This document shows, in pieces, positions 1-58,713 of a stretch of DNA of 64,000 bases. A program made the position numbers and the translations under genes. This DNA comes from Escherichia coli. Lineage in GTDB: Bacteria; Pseudomonadota; Gammaproteobacteria; Enterobacterales; Enterobacteriaceae. Numbering within the stretch: position 1 is the first letter of the stretch; every line of letters starts with the position of its first letter. Location of the stretch: NCBI RefSeq assembly GCF_030013205.1, contig NZ_CP122648.1. One strand, given 5' to 3'. The notes under the pieces were generated by a model. The model had not been told where the DNA came from. It ran no database searches and was given only the letters and a program-made list of their open reading frames with translations.

Positions 1-703
1 GAATAATCGTTCCGCCCAGATGGCGTTCACGCAGCATCAGCCAGATAAGCCCCCAACCGGTGAGCGTTGCCAGTGAGAATAAACTCCCGGCAAACAGCGT
101 ATGGTGCGGATTCTGATTACCGGTTTCCGGCATGGTGGTGATAAATTTTTGCCCGGTATATTGCTGAATGCGCACGCCCATTTTTTCGCTTAGCGGGATA
201 TGTTCGTACCACGCCTGTTGCAGCTGCGCGCACCAGTCGCCGCGATGCAGAATGTCATCCAGAGTGGCGACAGGTTTTATCATCAAAAAATGGCGAATCG
301 GCGTGGTGGTTGGCGTGGTGATTTCTCCCTGATTAACAAACCCCAGCTTGGCGAAAAACTCCACCGCGTCTTCGCGGGCGCTACAGGTCACGCGCTTAAC
401 ACCTTCCTGACGCGCCACAGATTCGAGGGTCATCGCCATCAGCGTTCCTAACCCTTTGTCCTGCACGTCGGGATGAACGGCCATAAAGCGAATGGACGCT
501 TCATTGTCGGCATTAATATACAGTCGGCCTACCGCCACCAGATTACCCTGCTCGTCGACGACCATCTGGTGATGCGCCATCGCATCCCACGCGTCGCGTT
601 CCGAACCTTTCGGTTGATGCAGGGGCTTACGCAACATTTCCCAGCGAAACTGATAGTAACGCTCTAATTCTTCTTCTGTTTGTGGAACCCGAAGGTGATA
701 CAT
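1..703 (-). CDS. yiiD: Acetyltransferase/thioesterase YiiD (FabY), 5' portion only; gene runs off the window start
   Basis: Minus-strand reading frame open from ATG at 701-703 to position 1; translation begins [30 protein letters not shown], recognised as the YiiD N-terminus. Not in the supplied ORF track because no stop lies in the window. Confidence 0.8.
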
Positions 704-14624: not shown

Positions 14625-15305
14625 TGTGCACAGAAAACCCCCAGCTAGGCTGGGGGTTCCGGAAAGCTTTCAGCTTTGAGCCAGTTATTAAAACCCCTTT
14701 TGATTTGTTAAAACACCTTGCGGTCTGGCAACTGCAAGTGTCAAACAAGAAATCAAAAGGGGGTCCCAATGGGGAACGAAAAGAGCTTAGCGCACACCCG
14801 ATGGAACTGTAAATATCACATGGTTTTTGCGCCAAAATACCGAAGACAGGTGTTCTACAGAGAGAAGCGTAGAGCAATAGGCAGTATTTTGAGAAAGCTG
14901 TGTGAGTGGAAAAGCGTACGGATTCTGGAAGCTGAATGCTGTGCAGATCATATCCATATGCTTGTGGAGATCCCGCCTAAAATGAGCGTATCCGGGTTTA
15001 TGGGATATCTGAAAGGGAAAAGCAGTCTGATGCTTTACGAGCAGTTTGGTGATTTGAAATTCAAATACAGGAACAGGGAGTTCTGGTGCAGAGGGTACTA
15101 CGTCGATACAGTGGGTAAGAACACGGCGAAGATACAGGATTACATAAAGCACCAGCTTGAAGAGGATAAAATGGGAGAGCAGTTATCGATTCCCTATCCG
15201 GGCAGCCCGTTTACGGGCCGTAAGTAACGAAGTTGGATGCAAATGTCAGATCGTGTGCGCCTGTTAGGGCGCGGCTGGTAAGAGAGCCTTATAGGCGCAT
15301 TTGAA
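14625..15305 (+). mobile_element. IS200-family (IS200/IS605) insertion element; ends approximate
   Basis: Contains a 152-aa tnpA ORF nearly identical to Salmonella IS200 TnpA as remembered; perfect hairpin cccccag-ctagg-ctggggg at about 14640-14658 upstream of tnpA; K-12 has no such element between ompL and yihN. Exact left and right ends not determinable without an empty-site comparison. Confidence 0.7.
14769..15227 (+). CDS. tnpA: IS200 transposase TnpA (HUH Y1 transposase)
   Basis: MGNEKSLAHTRWNCKYHMVFAPKYRRQVFY...HIHMLVEIPPK...; HUH motif (HIH) and the catalytic-Tyr region recognised; RBS aaagggg upstream. Confidence 0.9.
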   Translation: MGNEKSLAHTRWNCKYHMVFAPKYRRQVFYREKRRAIGSILRKLCEWKSVRILEAECCADHIHMLVEIPPKMSVSGFMGYLKGKSSLMLYEQFGDLKFKYRNREFWCRGYYVDTVGKNTAKIQDYIKHQLEEDKMGEQLSIPYPGSPFTGRK

Positions 15306-20439: not shown

Positions 20440-20587
20440 AACTTTGCCTCAGGCATTAGAAATAGCGCGTTATTGTACACGGATTAATCGCACTACAAAA
20501 CAGGATCACAAACATCCTCCGCAAACAAGTATTGCAGAGTCCCTTTGTGATCGCTTTCACGGAGCATAAAAAGGGTTATCCAAAGGT

Positions 20588-20640
20588 CATTGCACCAATA
20601 TGGTGCTTAATGTTTCCATTGAAGCACTATATTGGTGCAA
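20588..20640 (+). promoter_or_regulatory. Tandem NtrC (NRI) binding sites / enhancer upstream of glnA
   Basis: tgcaccaatatggtgc (20591-20606) and gcactatattggtgc (20624-20638), both fitting the NtrC TGCACC-N5-GGTGCA dyad. Confidence 0.65.
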
Positions 20641-27348: not shown

Positions 27349-27413
27349 AATGGTTCGTCTTTTAGCCGTTTTATTCAGTATAGATTTGCGGCGGAATCTA
27401 ACAGAAAGCAAGC

Positions 27414-27659
27414 AAAGAAAAAAGGCGACAGATTACTCTGTCGCCTTTTTTCCTGACTCATAACCCTTAACGGGTCTTACAATCCTTGCAGGCCGCCAAC
27501 ACACCCTGTTTTTCCATTAGCCGGAACAATCCGTGTTGATTCCATTTCCGTTTAATTACGTCTCCGGACGTTTGTCTTCCTGACAATCCTCTGTCTTCGC
27601 CTCCTGGCGCTCCTGACCCTCATCCTGAGTCATTGTTCCTGTTAGCGTCCTCGCTCTAT
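27414..27659 (-). ncRNA. csrC: CsrC small RNA (CsrA-sequestering)
   Basis: Minus strand reads ATAGAGCGAGGACGCTAACAGGAACAATGACTCAGGATGAGGGTCAGGAGCGCCAGGAGG..., with many GGA motifs, ending in the hairpin ggcgacagagtaatctgtcgcc + U-run; matches CsrC as remembered and its known yihA-yihI intergenic location. Confidence 0.85.
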
Positions 27660-27929: not shown

Positions 27930-28562
27930 TTGACTAATTTGAATTATCAACAGACGCATTTTGTGATGAGTGCGCCTGATATTCGCCACCTACCTTCCGA
28001 TACCGGAATTGAAGTGGCTTTTGCAGGCCGTTCCAACGCAGGTAAATCCAGCGCGCTGAACACGCTGACTAACCAGAAAAGCCTGGCTCGTACCTCAAAA
28101 ACCCCAGGGCGCACCCAGCTTATCAACCTGTTTGAAGTGGCTGACGGCAAGCGTCTGGTTGACCTGCCCGGCTATGGCTACGCGGAAGTCCCGGAAGAGA
28201 TGAAGCGCAAATGGCAGCGCGCGCTCGGCGAATACCTCGAAAAACGTCAGAGCCTGCAAGGTCTGGTGGTGCTAATGGATATTCGCCATCCGCTGAAAGA
28301 TTTGGATCAGCAGATGATTGAGTGGGCGGTAGACAGCAATATCGCCGTTCTGGTGCTGCTAACCAAAGCGGACAAACTGGCAAGCGGCGCACGTAAAGCG
28401 CAATTGAATATGGTGCGTGAAGCGGTGCTGGCGTTTAACGGTGATGTGCAGGTTGAAACCTTCTCTTCACTGAAGAAACAAGGCGTGGACAAGCTGCGGC
28501 AGAAACTGGATACCTGGTTTAGCGAGATGCAGCCTGTAGAAGAAACGCAGGACGGCGAATAA
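27930..28562 (+). CDS. engB: Ribosome biogenesis GTPase EngB (YihA/YsxC)
   Basis: 210-aa ORF starting at a TTG; [22 protein letters not shown]...; G1 GRSNAGKSS. Confidence 0.93.
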
Positions 28563-28582
28563 TTTTCTTGCCTTAATGCTTG

Positions 28583-28662
28583 TGCCGGATGTGGCGTATC
28601 CGGCCCGTAAATTCAATAGATTACACTTCTACCGTTGGCCTGATAAACAGGGCGCATCAGGC
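28583..28662. repeat. REP/BIME element
   Basis: gccggatgtggcgtatccggc ... ggcctgataaacagggcgcatcaggc. Confidence 0.6.
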
Positions 28663-28685
28663 ATTACGGATCTTTTCTTTCGCCC

Positions 28686-28796
28686 AATAAAAAACGCCCC
28701 AGTCATTACTGACTGGGGCGGCTAAAATATTCAGCCAAATCCGATTACGTGAAGTAAAAGGTCTGAAAGATAGAACATCTTACCTCTGTACCCTAC
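28686..28796 (-). ncRNA. spf: Spot 42 small RNA
   Basis: Minus strand reads GTAGGGTACAGAGGTAAGATGTTCTATCTTTCAGACC...GCCGCCCCAGTCAGTAATGACTGGGGCGTTTTTTATTGGGCG, matching Spot 42 including its terminator; immediately 3' of polA as in K-12. Confidence 0.9.
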
Positions 28797-28943
28797 GCGA
28801 CTAACTTTACTCTTTTTTGTTCAGTTCAGAAAGCATTTTTTGTAATTTTTTTTCAGTTGTTGCATAGGAATTTCTAATAGCCATCACAAAACGTGACAGC
28901 TTATGTTGCTTACTTACGAAAAAAGGGCATGTTCAGGCGAATC

Positions 28944-31730
28944 TTAGTGCGCCTGATCCCAGTTTTCGCCACTCCCCACTTCCACCAGCAGCGGCACATC
29001 CAGACGGGTACAGTTTTCCATCAGTTGATGAATCTGCTTCGCGACGGCATCGACATCATCTTTATGAACTTCAAATACCAGTTCATCGTGTACCTGCATG
29101 ATCATACGCACACGCGGTTGCTCAGCCTGTAGCCACGCATCAACGGCAATCATCGCCCGTTTGATAATGTCGGCGGCGGTTCCCTGCATTGGCGCGTTAA
29201 TGGCTGCACGTTCAGCCGCTGCACGACGAGCCCCATTGCTGGATTTGATATCCGGCAGATACAGACGGCGTCCGTCCAGCGTTTCAACGTAGCCCTGCTC
29301 TTTCGCCTGAGCACGGGTGCGTTCCATATACTCCAGCACGCCAGGGTAGCGTTCGAAGTAAAGGTCCATGTACTTCTGCGCTTCTTTACGTGGAATGTTC
29401 AATTGCCGCGCCAGACCGAAAGCACTCATGCCATAAATCAGACCAAAGTTGATCGCTTTCGCGCTACGGCGTTGCTCGCTGGTTACGGTTTCCAGTGGCA
29501 AACCAAACACTTCTGCCGCCGTAGCCCGGTGGATATCTTTTCCTTCCGCGAATGCGGTCAGCAAGCCTTTGTCACGCGAGAGATGCGCCATAATGCGCAG
29601 TTCAATCTGCGAGTAGTCCGCCGAGACAATCACATAATCCTCTGGCGCAATAAACGCCTGGCGGATACGACGACCTTCTTCGTTACGCACCGGAATGTTT
29701 TGCAGGTTAGGATCGGTTGACGATAAACGTCCCGTTGCAGTTACTGCCTGGTGATAAGAGGTATGCACACGCCCGGTTTTCGGGTTGATCATCAGCGGCA
29801 GCTTGTCGGTGTAAGTCGATTTCAGCTTCGCCAGACCACGATACTCCAGAATCACTTTTGGCAACGGATAGTCCAGCGCCAGTTCTTCCAGTACCTCTTC
29901 CGACGTTGACGGCGCGCCACCTGGCGTTTTCTTCAGCGGTTTAATGCCCTGTTTTTCAAACAGAATGGTTTGTAACTGCTTGGTGGAAGAAAGGTTAAAC
30001 TCCTCACCTGCAATTTCATGCGCTTTCTTTTCCAGCTCAGCCAGACGAAGAGTGAGCTCTTCAGAATGATTGTGCAGCACTTTCGGATCGATCTTCACAC
30101 CGTTACGTTCAATGCGTGAAAGCACCGGCACTAGCGGCATTTCGATATTCTCGAAGACGTTCAACGGACCTTTGTGTTTTTGCAGATCCGGCCACATTTT
30201 CAGATGCAGCTGCAAGGTGACATCTGCATCTTCGGCGGCGTAACGTCCGGCCTCTTCCAGGGCAATCTGGTTAAAGGTCAGTTGATTTTTACCTTTACCA
30301 GCAATCTCTTCAAAAGTGATGGTTTTGTGCTTCAACCAACGTTCCGCGAGGCTGTCCATATCGTGACGCCCGGCAACGCTATTGAGAATGTAGGACTCCA
30401 GCATGGTATCAAATGCAATCCCACGCAGCTCAATGCCGTAATTCGCCAGAATACCGCGATCGTATTTCAGGTTTTGCCCAACCTTCAGCGCCTTTTCATC
30501 TTCCAGCAGCGGTTTTAGCAACTCGAGTGCACGCTCGCGAGAGATTTGATCGGGCGCATCAAGATAATCATGAGCAACCGGAATATATGCCGCTACGCCT
30601 GGCTCGATAGCAAAAGAAAGCCCGACCAGGTTAGCAGAGATGTTATCAAGGCTGTCGGTTTCGGTATCAAATGCAAATACCGGCGCTTTTTCCAGCTTCG
30701 CAATCCACGCTTTCAGTGTTTCTTCATCAAGGATGGTGACGTAGTTGTCATAAGAAATCACCGTTGCCGTCACCTCTGGCGCTTCGTCTGCAACACTGGT
30801 TTCCTGCGGCCTGGCTGCGGGTTTCGCCCCTTTAGCCTGTAACCATTTGCCCGCTTCGACATCAGCAGTCCAGCGTTTGAACTCATACTTTTTGAACAGC
30901 CCCAACAACTCTTCCGCTGCCGGTTGCTGCACTTCCAGTTGTTCGCAGGTCAGCTCCAGTTCAACGTCGGTTTTAATCGTCGCCAGCTGGTATGAGAGAT
31001 AAGCAACTTCTTTGTTTTGCTCGAGCTTCGCTGCCATTGTTTTCGCGCCACGGAAGCTCAACCCGGCAATTTTTTCTGGCTCGGCATACAGCGTATCCAG
31101 TCCGCCAAGACCTTGCAGCAATGCCTGCGCGGTTTTTTCACCGACGCCCGGTACGCCAGGGATGTTATCGGAGGAGTCACCCATCAGCGCCAGGAAATCG
31201 ATGATCAGTTCTGGCGGCACGCCGTACTTATTCACCACCTCTTCCGGGCCGAGGATGGTATTCGTCATGGTGTTGATAAGCGTAATATTTGGCGTCACCA
31301 GCTGCGCCATATCTTTATCGCCAGTGCTGATCAGCACCGGACGCCCGGCTTTTTCGGCTTCGCGCGCCAGAGTACCGATAACGTCGTCCGCTTCTACGCC
31401 AGAAACCGCCAGCAGCGGCAGTCCCATCGCTTTAACCATCGCGTGCAGAGGTTCGATTTGTGCTCGCAGATCGTCCGGCATTGGCGGGCGATGTGATTTG
31501 TAATGTTCAAACAGTTCATCACGAAAGGTTTTTCCCTTGGCGTCAAAGACCACCGCTGCATGCGTCGGTTTATATTGCATGATCAGACTGCGCAGCATGT
31601 TGAGGACACCATACATCGCACCGGTCGGCTCGCCTGCGCTGTTAGTCAGCGGGGGAAACGCGTGATATGCGCGATAAAGATAAGATGAACCATCTACAAG
31701 GATAAGTGGATTTTGGTGGATCTGAACCAT
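28944..31730 (-). CDS. polA: DNA polymerase I
   Basis: 928-aa [28 protein letters not shown]...; 5'-3' exonuclease, 3'-5' exonuclease and polymerase domains. Confidence 0.97.
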
Positions 31731-37890: not shown

Positions 37891-38010
37891 ATGCCTGGCA
37901 GTTCCCTACTCTCGCATGGGGAGACCCCACACTACCATCGGCGCTACGGCGTTTCACTTCTGAGTTCGGCATGGGGTCAGGTGGGACCACCGCGCTAAGG
38001 CCGCCAGGCA
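37891..38010 (-). rRNA. rrfA: 5S ribosomal RNA
   Basis: Minus strand reads TGCCTGGCGGCC...GGAACTGCCAGGCAT over 120 nt, matching E. coli 5S rRNA with at most one mismatch to my recollection. Confidence 0.95.
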
Positions 38011-38102
38011 AATTCTGTTTCATCAGACCGCTTCTGCGTTCTGATTTAATCTGTATCAGGCTGAAAATCTTCTCTCATCCGCCAAAACATCTTCGGCGTT
38101 GT

Positions 38103-41007
<2,905 letters not shown>

Positions 41008-41190
41008 TCACAACCCGAAGATGTTTCTTTCGATTCATCATCGTGTTGCGAAAATTTGAGAGACTCACGAACAACTTTCGTTGTTCAGTGTTTCAATTTT
41101 CAGCTTGATCCAGATTTTTAAAGAGCAAAACTTCGCAGTGAACCTTTGCAGGTACACTCTGAAGTATTTTTTATTTAATCACTACAGAGA

Positions 41191-41266
41191 TGGTGGAGCT
41201 ATGCGGGATCGAACCGCAGACCTCCTGCGTGCAAAGCAGGCGCTCTCCCAGCTGAGCTATAGCCCC
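41191..41266 (-). tRNA. alaT: tRNA-Ala (anticodon UGC), rRNA spacer
   Basis: Minus strand reads GGGGCTATAGCTCAGCTGGGAGAGCGCCTGCTTTGCACGCAGGAGGTCTGCGGTTCGATCCCGCATAGCTCCACCA. Confidence 0.95.
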
Positions 41267-41308
41267 ATAACATGTAGTTAAAACCTCTTCAAATTTGCCG
41301 TGCAAATT

Positions 41309-41385
<77 letters not shown>

Positions 41386-41453
41386 GTAGAGGTTTTACTG
41401 CTCATTTTCATCAGACAATCTGTGTGAGCACTTCAAAGAACGCTTCTTTAAGG

Positions 41454-42995
<1,542 letters not shown>

Positions 42996-56470: not shown

Positions 56471-58713
<2,243 letters not shown>

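What the first reader, a model, noticed from the sequence alone, without database searches (positions are those of the whole stretch)
28686..28796. Spot 42 (spf) immediately 3' of polA
Exact-looking match including the terminator. A known sRNA of the CRP regulon, included to account for the polA-yihA spacer.
Basis: partly seen in the sequence, partly recalled or inferred. Interest (0 to 1): 0.2.

Follow-up and report, generated by a model that had tools for sequence, protein, structure and literature searches.

The report
Spot 42 small RNA gene (spf)
This is the ordinary, textbook Escherichia coli spf gene, which makes the glucose-responsive Spot 42 regulatory RNA and its 15-residue peptide SpfP; it is letter-for-letter identical to the K-12 copy and sits in its usual place after polA.

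Summary
Window 28686-28796, minus strand, is the spf gene. It is 111/111 nt identical to K-12 MG1655 spf (b3864) and scores 122.8 bits against Rfam RF00021 (gathering score 80). It lies 147 bp downstream of polA on the same strand and converges on yihA/engB. The terminator hairpin and U-tail, the three published target-pairing stretches, the SpfP reading frame (MFYLSDLLLHVIGFG) and the published CRP site upstream are all intact.

The same 111 nt occur in 5424 of 5426 complete E. coli genomes. In a sample of 120 species genomes from Enterobacterales, Vibrionales, Aeromonadales and a few Alteromonadales, nt 1-41 are invariant, the polA-spf-yihA order is usually kept, and hairpin 2 and the terminator show compensatory base changes.

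The mechanism comes from published work on an identical sequence. Spot 42 is an Hfq-dependent, CRP-repressed base-pairing RNA that silences secondary-carbon-source genes such as galK. It is also the mRNA for SpfP, which inhibits CRP.

The only local peculiarity is a common A/G polymorphism at -40 of the promoter.

Verdict: already known, low interest.

The parts
28686..28796 (-). spf gene (Spot 42 RNA). These are the K-12-annotation-equivalent 111 nt; the 109-nt RNA of the literature is 28688-28796. RNA nucleotide n corresponds to window position 28797-n.
   Evidence: 111/111 identical to K-12 b3864. Rfam RF00021 at 122.8 bits against gathering score 80. Present in 5424 of 5426 complete E. coli genomes, 5423 of them at >=99% identity.
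28789..28796 (-). Pairing region I (RNA nt 1-8, GUAGGGUA).
   Evidence: Complementary, with one G-U pair, to galK +49..+56 of K-12 gal mRNA. Published mutational and compensatory evidence is in PMC8577784. Invariant in all 118 full-length homologues, and not constrained by my search pattern.
28783..28786 (-). Shine-Dalgarno-like GAGG (RNA nt 11-14) for spfP, buried in hairpin 1.
   Evidence: Read from the sequence. Predicted unpaired probability is 0.01. [quoted passage not shown]
28731..28778 (-). spfP coding sequence: 15 codons plus UGA (RNA nt 19-66).
   Evidence: Translates to MFYLSDLLLHVIGFG*. Annotated as spfP b4837 in K-12 and in other RefSeq records. Function is described in PMC8916003.
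28761..28770 (-). Pairing region II (RNA nt 27-36, UCUUUCAGAC).
   Evidence: Ten contiguous Watson-Crick pairs with galK +5..+14, as described in PMC8577784.
28736..28748 (-). Single-stranded linker and pairing region III (RNA nt 49-61). It includes the GGA reported as a CsrA site.
   Evidence: Unpaired in the MFE and consensus structures, with mean unpaired probability 0.8. Nt 53-61 pair with galK -19..-11, overlapping the galK SD. The CsrA statement comes from PMC12612679.
28720..28736 (-). Hairpin 2 (RNA nt 61-77).
   Evidence: Predicted. The closing pair changes from G-C to A-U in 7 of 48 homologues, a change on both sides.
28689..28720 (-). Rho-independent terminator hairpin plus U6 tail, the typical Hfq-binding 3' module.
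   Evidence: Terminator scan finds CGCCCCAGTCAGTAATGACTGGGGCG followed by TTTTTT. Eight of its ten pairs show changes on both sides among homologues.
28797..28943 (-). polA-spf spacer with the spf promoter. A likely -10 TAAAGT lies at 28809-28804, placed by position relative to the annotated +1.
   Evidence: Identical to K-12 except an extra C in the C-run at 28925-28927 and A instead of G at 28836, which is -40. The -10 assignment is inferred from position only. The consensus promoter scan reported nothing here.
28870..28891 (-). Published CRP-binding site of spf, TTTTGTGATGGCTATTAGAAAT, centred about -85.
   Evidence: The exact 22-mer quoted in PMC3295665 (citing Polayes et al. 1988) is present unchanged (sequence print). 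It matches 8 of 10 positions of the TGTGA-N6-TCACA core.
28563..28685 (.). spf-yihA spacer with two REP-like palindromes (28584-28604 and 28638-28662). This is context, not part of spf.
   Evidence: Inverted repeats GCCGGAT/ATCCGGC and GCCTGAT/ATCAGGC. Three substitutions relative to K-12, at 28651, 28650 and 28626. The REP assignment rests on my knowledge of the REP consensus and was not tested.

Best explanation
This is the chromosomal spf gene of an Escherichia coli strain. It is transcribed from its own promoter on the minus strand of the window, downstream of polA. It ends at a Rho-independent terminator and yields the 109-nt Spot 42 RNA.

What is shown here: the gene is identical to K-12 spf; its position between polA and yihA; the terminator; the intact pairing regions, SpfP reading frame and CRP site; and structure covariation in homologues.

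What is taken from published experiments on the identical K-12 sequence: cAMP-CRP represses transcription, so the RNA is abundant in glucose. With Hfq, its single-stranded stretches I, II and III pair with mRNAs for uptake and catabolism of secondary carbon sources. At the galT-galK junction this blocks galK expression and produces galET transcripts through Rho-dependent termination and RNase E cleavage. The same RNA is translated, more so at 42-45 C when hairpin 1 opens, into the 15-residue SpfP. [quoted passage not shown]

What is inferred: this strain's copy behaves the same way, because every nucleotide of the RNA and the CRP site are unchanged.
For: 111/111 identity to K-12 spf, and only 5 differences across the 381-bp intergenic region. 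Rfam RF00021 at 122.8 bits against gathering score 80. polA and yihA flanks are 99.8% and 100% identical to K-12. Terminator found. Stable fold, z = -5.08. SpfP ORF intact and annotated in RefSeq. Published galK complementarities reproduced: 8, 10 and 9 pairs at +49..56, +5..14 and -19..-11. Published CRP 22-mer intact (PMC3295665). Near-universal in E. coli. In 120 species genomes from four orders, nt 1-41 are invariant, 95 keep polA-spf-yihA, and 9 of 34 predicted pairs show compensatory changes. Mechanism: PMC8916003, PMC8577784, PMC5991649, PMC12612679.
Against: Nothing here contradicts the explanation, but four results are weaker than they might look. No expression data exist for this strain. 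The generic sigma-70 scan did not flag the promoter. Thermodynamic folding predicts regions I and II to be largely or partly paired (unpaired probabilities 0.3 and 0.47), not 'unstructured'. My shuffle test of short complementarities to galK is not significant on its own (1 stretch of >=8 Watson-Crick pairs, reached by 283 of 1000 shuffles; 8 stretches with G-U allowed, reached by 142 of 1000), so target pairing rests on published genetics. Finally, the -40 A/G difference from K-12 could change promoter strength.
Confidence: 0.97

Rival explanations
1. The locus works only as a non-coding base-pairing RNA. The 15-codon frame is incidental to sequence constraints on the RNA, and SpfP has no physiological role at native expression levels.
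For: The SD and AUG are buried in hairpin 1 (unpaired probabilities 0.01 and about 0.3). The ORF overlaps pairing regions II and III, so its conservation could come from RNA-level selection alone. Among homologues I count about 3 synonymous and 5 non-synonymous substitution types, which gives no clear coding signal (my reading). Some species have lost the stop codon or the frame. Earlier work concluded that Spot 42 is not an mRNA (cited in PMC8916003 and PMC3295665).
Against: PMC8916003 detected chromosomally tagged SpfP, separated the coding and pairing functions genetically with recoded and STOP alleles, showed co-purification with CRP, and saw chromosomal spfSTOP phenotypes at 42 C. A 15-codon ORF is kept in 112 of 119 sampled species, and His10, which that paper names as critical for SpfP function, is kept in all of these 15-codon ORFs.
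Confidence: 0.1
2. The RNA is not an independent gene but a 3'-UTR product of polA, made by read-through and processing.
For: spf is co-oriented with polA and only 147 bp downstream. No canonical terminator was detected between polA and spf, and no consensus promoter was reported by the scan. The polA-spf linkage is widely conserved.
Against: K-12 spf has a mapped +1 and its own CRP-repressed promoter (PMC8916003 Fig. 1 legend; PMC3295665 citing Polayes 1988), and that DNA is unchanged here apart from the base at -40. The Aeromonas homologues lack polA upstream yet keep spf.
Confidence: 0.02
3. Chance resemblance or a decayed pseudogene copy.
For: None.
Against: E = 3.6e-24 against the Rfam model, 100% identity to the type gene, and the expected synteny.
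Confidence: 0.005

Closest known systems
Escherichia coli K-12 spf (b3864), Spot 42 RNA; Rfam RF00021
   Same: Every one of the 111 annotated nucleotides, the terminator, the three pairing regions, the position between polA and yihA, and the upstream CRP 22-mer.
   Different: Only flanking DNA differs: A instead of G at -40 (window 28836), one extra C just after polA, and three substitutions in the downstream REP-like region.
SpfP (b4837) and dual-function sRNAs such as SgrS/SgrT and AzuCR/AzuC
   Same: An identical 15-codon ORF preceded by GAGG, lying inside the sRNA and overlapping its pairing regions. As with AzuCR, coding and pairing sequences overlap (PMC8916003).
   Different: No difference from K-12 SpfP. 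Compared with SgrST, the peptide is far shorter and its ORF is not separate from the pairing region.
Spot 42 of Vibrionaceae and Aeromonadaceae (e.g. Aliivibrio salmonicida, PMC3295665)
   Same: Nt 1-41 are identical, with the same three-hairpin layout and terminator. In Vibrionales the polA-spf-yihA order is also the same.
   Different: Substitutions at nt 42-61 (region III and SpfP residues 9, 13, 14), a shorter hairpin 2 loop, and different terminator stems. The sampled Aeromonas loci lack polA upstream.

Membership tests
Spot 42 RNA (spf; Rfam RF00021) | Covariance-model score at or above the curated gathering threshold | tested here: met
   122.8 bits against gathering score 80, full model 1-115, E = 3.6e-24.
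Spot 42 RNA (spf; Rfam RF00021) | Sequence identity to the type gene (K-12 b3864), including the target-pairing regions I, II and III | tested here: met
   111/111 identical. The three galK complementarities are reproduced.
Spot 42 RNA (spf; Rfam RF00021) | Genomic position: downstream of polA on the same strand and convergent with yihA/engB | tested here: met
   polA 28944-31730(-) and yihA 27930-28562(+). The same arrangement occurs in 95 of 120 homologous loci.
Spot 42 RNA (spf; Rfam RF00021) | Three-hairpin secondary structure supported by covariation | tested here: met
   The RNAalifold consensus equals the MFE structure. Nine of 34 pairs have changes on both sides, all in hairpin 2 and the terminator. 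Hairpin 1 shows only G-C/G-U and U-A/U-G switches on one side, because its 5' arm is invariant.
Spot 42 RNA (spf; Rfam RF00021) | Pairing regions are single-stranded in the free RNA | tested here: inconclusive
   Predicted unpaired probabilities are 0.8 for region III, 0.47 for region II and 0.3 for region I. The published structure is based on probing, which cannot be reproduced here.
Hfq-dependent trans-acting sRNAs | Rho-independent terminator with a 3' U-tail; binding to Hfq | tested here: met
   The terminator plus U6 is met by sequence. Hfq binding itself cannot be tested with these tools and is taken from the literature (PMC8916003).
CRP regulon (CRP-repressed promoter) | CRP-binding site upstream of spf; repression by cAMP-CRP | tested here: met
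   The published 22-mer is present unchanged at 28891-28870(-) (PMC3295665). Repression itself is not testable here.
Dual-function RNA encoding SpfP | 15-codon ORF MFYLSDLLLHVIGFG with an SD, including His10 | tested here: met
   His10 is described as critical in PMC8916003.
Dual-function RNA encoding SpfP | Peptide is translated and binds CRP | not testable with these tools
   Taken from PMC8916003, which worked on the identical K-12 sequence.

The most novel reading that the evidence does not exclude
The 15-codon SpfP frame is kept in 112 of 119 sampled species across Enterobacterales, Vibrionales and Aeromonadales, always with His10 and the same stop position. This would mean that peptide-level control of CRP by spf is ancestral to the whole Spot 42 family and not a peculiarity of E. 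coli. Separately, the common A/G polymorphism at -40 of the promoter (this window carries the minority A allele) might set different Spot 42 levels in different E. coli lineages. Neither reading is excluded. Neither is supported beyond sequence conservation, which RNA-level constraint alone could explain.
Probability: 0.3. Interest if true: 0.25.

Novelty: already known. Interest (0 to 1): 0.05.

Why it matters
It matters only as correct annotation. The polA-yihA spacer of this window is fully accounted for by a known gene: spf with its promoter and CRP site, followed by REP-like palindromes. The one useful correction is that the locus should be annotated as dual-function (Spot 42 RNA plus spfP) and on the minus strand. 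No open question becomes testable through this copy.

Tried and rejected
1. The generic sigma-70 promoter scan of 28500-29000 found no site. The known spf promoter falls below that tool's consensus threshold, so this is not evidence against a promoter.

2. Shuffle tests of complementarity between Spot 42 and the K-12 galT-galK junction were not significant. There was 1 perfect stretch of >=8 nt, reached by 283 of 1000 shuffles (shuffle mean 0.34). With G-U allowed there were 8 stretches of >=8, reached by 142 of 1000 shuffles. Short seed pairings cannot be validated this way.

3. RNAduplex on the full-length RNAs (-73.1 kcal/mol against -54.6 +/- 5.4 for shuffles) ignores intramolecular structure. 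I do not use it as evidence.

4. I looked for a coding-specific signal in the SpfP frame across homologues and found about 3 synonymous and 5 non-synonymous substitution types. That is too few, and too confounded by RNA constraints, to decide. The first 6 codons were also fixed by my search pattern, so their conservation is by construction.

5. Weak sub-threshold Rfam hits on the same stretch (PyrR, VrrA, NsiR1, ncS54; E = 0.09-0.32) all ride on the terminator hairpin and were dismissed.

6. CRP-like half-sites nearer the promoter, at -26.5 and -62.5, match only 6 of 10 positions and were not pursued.

Full report
**Observation.**
- A scan of the whole window against Rfam 15 gives one Spot_42 (RF00021) match, at 28688-28806(-). 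It scores 122.8 bits against a gathering score of 80, E = 3.6e-24, and covers the full model. A permissive rescan of 28500-29000 returns the same hit. It adds only sub-threshold matches that ride on the terminator hairpin.
- The K-12 MG1655 record annotates spf (b3864) at 4049899-4050009, 111 nt, with spfP (b4837) inside it.
- Aligning the complete polA-yihA intergenic region of the window with that of K-12 shows 100% identity over the 111 nt of spf. There are only five differences in 381 columns, all outside the gene.
The 109-nt RNA of the literature is 28688-28796.

**Surroundings.**
- The ORF at 28944-31730(-) is PolA, 926/928 identical to K-12.
- The ORF at 27930-28562(+) is YihA/EngB, 210/210 identical.
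- spf +1 lies 147 bp after the polA stop codon on the same strand, and the gene converges on yihA.
- CsrC follows beyond yihA at 27406-27659(-), as in K-12.
- The window is E. coli DNA. The 381-bp spacer is found in 5424 of 5426 complete E. coli genomes. The 111-nt gene is found in 5424, in 5423 of them at >=99% identity, once per genome.

**Anatomy.** RNA nucleotide n corresponds to window position 28797-n.
- The RNA folds into three hairpins: nt 1-48, nt 61-77, and nt 78-101 followed by a U-tail. The MFE is -40.6 kcal/mol with z = -5.08.
- The terminator is found independently at 28720-28695(-), followed by TTTTTT.
- The reading frame at nt 19-66 (28778-28731) translates to MFYLSDLLLHVIGFG*. 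It is preceded by GAGG at nt 11-14.
- Both the SD and the AUG are inside hairpin 1, with predicted unpaired probabilities of 0.01 and about 0.3. This fits the published idea that translation rises when the stem melts at 42-45 C (PMC8916003).
- Upstream, the 22-mer TTTTGTGATGGCTATTAGAAAT is present unchanged at 28891-28870(-), centred near -85. PMC3295665 quotes this sequence, citing Polayes et al. 1988, as the CRP site of E. coli spf.
- A TAAAGT at -13..-8 is the likely -10 hexamer. This rests on position only, and the consensus promoter scanner reports nothing here.

**Target pairing.**
- I fetched the K-12 gal operon and searched for complementarity with the window's Spot 42.
- The three stretches described by PMC8577784 are all recovered. 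Region I (nt 1-8) pairs with galK +49..+56. Region II (nt 27-36) makes ten Watson-Crick pairs with +5..+14. Region III (nt 53-61) pairs with -19..-11, overlapping the galK SD.
- My shuffle controls show that stretches of this length are not statistically distinctive on their own: shuffles reached the observed count 283 times in 1000 (Watson-Crick only) and 142 times in 1000 (G-U allowed).
- That these pairings are functional therefore rests on the published compensatory-mutation experiments, not on my computation.
- ViennaRNA predicts only region III as clearly open (0.8). Region II is at 0.47 and region I at 0.3. The 'three unstructured regions' of the literature are not reproduced by thermodynamic prediction alone.

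**Relatives.**
They come from Enterobacterales, Vibrionales, Aeromonadales, Plesiomonas and a few Alteromonadales.
- Nt 1-41 are identical in all 118 full-length copies. Nt 1-12 and 37-41 lie outside the search pattern, so their invariance is a real result.
- polA lies upstream on the same strand and yihA converges downstream in 95 of the 120 loci. Most exceptions are Aeromonas, which lacks polA there.
- In an alignment of the window with 47 distinct homologues, RNAalifold recovers the same three hairpins. Nine of 34 pairs have changes on both sides, all in hairpin 2 and the terminator. Hairpin 1 changes only by one-sided G-C/G-U and U-A/U-G switches, because its 5' arm never varies.
- A 15-codon frame with the same stop position is kept in 112 of 119 loci, and His10 is kept in all of these. 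The variants are L9F, F14L, G15S and G13E/F14C.
- The frame is lost or extended in a few: (Ali)agarivorans has a 1-nt deletion, two Yersinia and Vibrio ruber have lost the stop, and one Photorhabdus has an insertion. Bowmanella has a truncated RNA of about 40 nt fused to a terminator.
- The ORF overlaps pairing regions, and the first six codons were fixed by my pattern. This conservation therefore cannot be credited to the peptide alone.

**Mechanism.** This is established for the identical K-12 sequence and inferred for this copy.
- cAMP-CRP represses spf, so Spot 42 accumulates in glucose.
- With Hfq, the RNA pairs through regions I-III with mRNAs for secondary carbon-source use, including galK, srlA, fucI, gltA and sthA. 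This forms a multi-output feed-forward loop with CRP (PMC8916003; PMC12612679).
- At galK, region II pairing leads to Rho-dependent termination and region I pairing to RNase E cleavage (PMC8577784).
- The RNA is also translated into SpfP, which binds CRP and blocks activation of promoters such as galE P1 and malE, especially at high temperature (PMC8916003).
- CsrA is reported to bind the GGA in region III and to protect the RNA from RNase E (PMC12612679).

**Rivals.**
- A purely non-coding reading is weakened by the genetics in PMC8916003, but my sequence analysis cannot exclude it.
- A polA 3'-UTR origin is contradicted by the mapped K-12 +1 and its own CRP-repressed promoter, and by Aeromonas copies that lack polA upstream.
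- Chance resemblance is excluded.

**Differences from K-12.**
- There is an extra C in the run at 28925-28927, just after polA.
- There is an A instead of G at 28836, which is -40 of spf.
- There are three substitutions, at 28651, 28650 and 28626, in or near two REP-like palindromes.
- The 71-nt promoter stretch around -40 is identical in 1474 of 5418 E. coli genomes and differs by at least one base in 3944. The window therefore carries a common minority haplotype. Its effect is unknown.

**Verdict.** The observation and the interpretation are both correct. The finding is the known spf gene, with the strand and the SpfP coding function to be added. Novelty: already known. Interest: 0.05.

Noticed in passing
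window 28836 (minus strand, -40 relative to spf +1): A here, G in K-12, just upstream of the presumed -35 region and extending an A-tract. The surrounding 71 nt are identical in 1474 of 5418 complete E. coli genomes and differ in 3944. It is a common polymorphism of unknown effect on Spot 42 levels.
   Followed up: partly
window 28563-28685: Two REP-like palindromes lie between spf and yihA: GCCGGAT...ATCCGGC at 28584-28604 and GCCTGAT...ATCAGGC at 28638-28662. They carry three substitutions relative to K-12. They probably form a BIME serving the 3' end of yihA.
   Followed up: partly
window 27406-27659 (-): CsrC sRNA: a full-length Rfam hit at 277.9 bits, on the far side of yihA as in K-12.
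   Followed up: no
window 37893-42995 (-): A complete rRNA operon: 16S at 41454-42995, two tRNAs at 41194-41385, 23S at 38103-41007 and 5S at 37893-38008. A StyR-44 hit lies at 41015-41123 in the spacer before 23S. By position relative to polA this should be rrnA.
   Followed up: no
window 14636-14759 (+), 20521-20628 (-), 58108-58359 (-): Further Rfam sRNA hits above gathering score: STnc490 (146.4 bits), ES222 (133 bits) and Erse (317.4 bits).
   Followed up: no
window 28944-31730 (-): PolA differs from K-12 at two residues, P5H and K307R.
   Followed up: no
L042:12921-13038 (-) (Bowmanella yangjiangensis): A truncated Spot 42-like gene: nt 1-40 are identical to E. coli but run straight into a GC-rich terminator, with no region III or hairpin 2. 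It may be a minimal version of the sRNA.
   Followed up: no
L094, L122 ((Ali)agarivorans); L041, L101 (Yersinia); L072 (Vibrio ruber); L119 (Photorhabdus tasmaniensis): The SpfP frame is disrupted or extended here. A 1-nt deletion gives 10 aa, TGA changed to TGT gives 24 or 43 aa, and an insertion gives 18 aa. The RNA is otherwise conserved. These are natural tests of whether the peptide is dispensable.
   Followed up: partly
L013, L029, L039, L071 and other Aeromonas loci: spf is kept next to yihA, but polA is not upstream.
   Followed up: no
E. coli genome collection: Two of 5426 complete genomes have no spf match, and in two the match lies on a record labelled as a plasmid. I did not examine these.
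   Followed up: no
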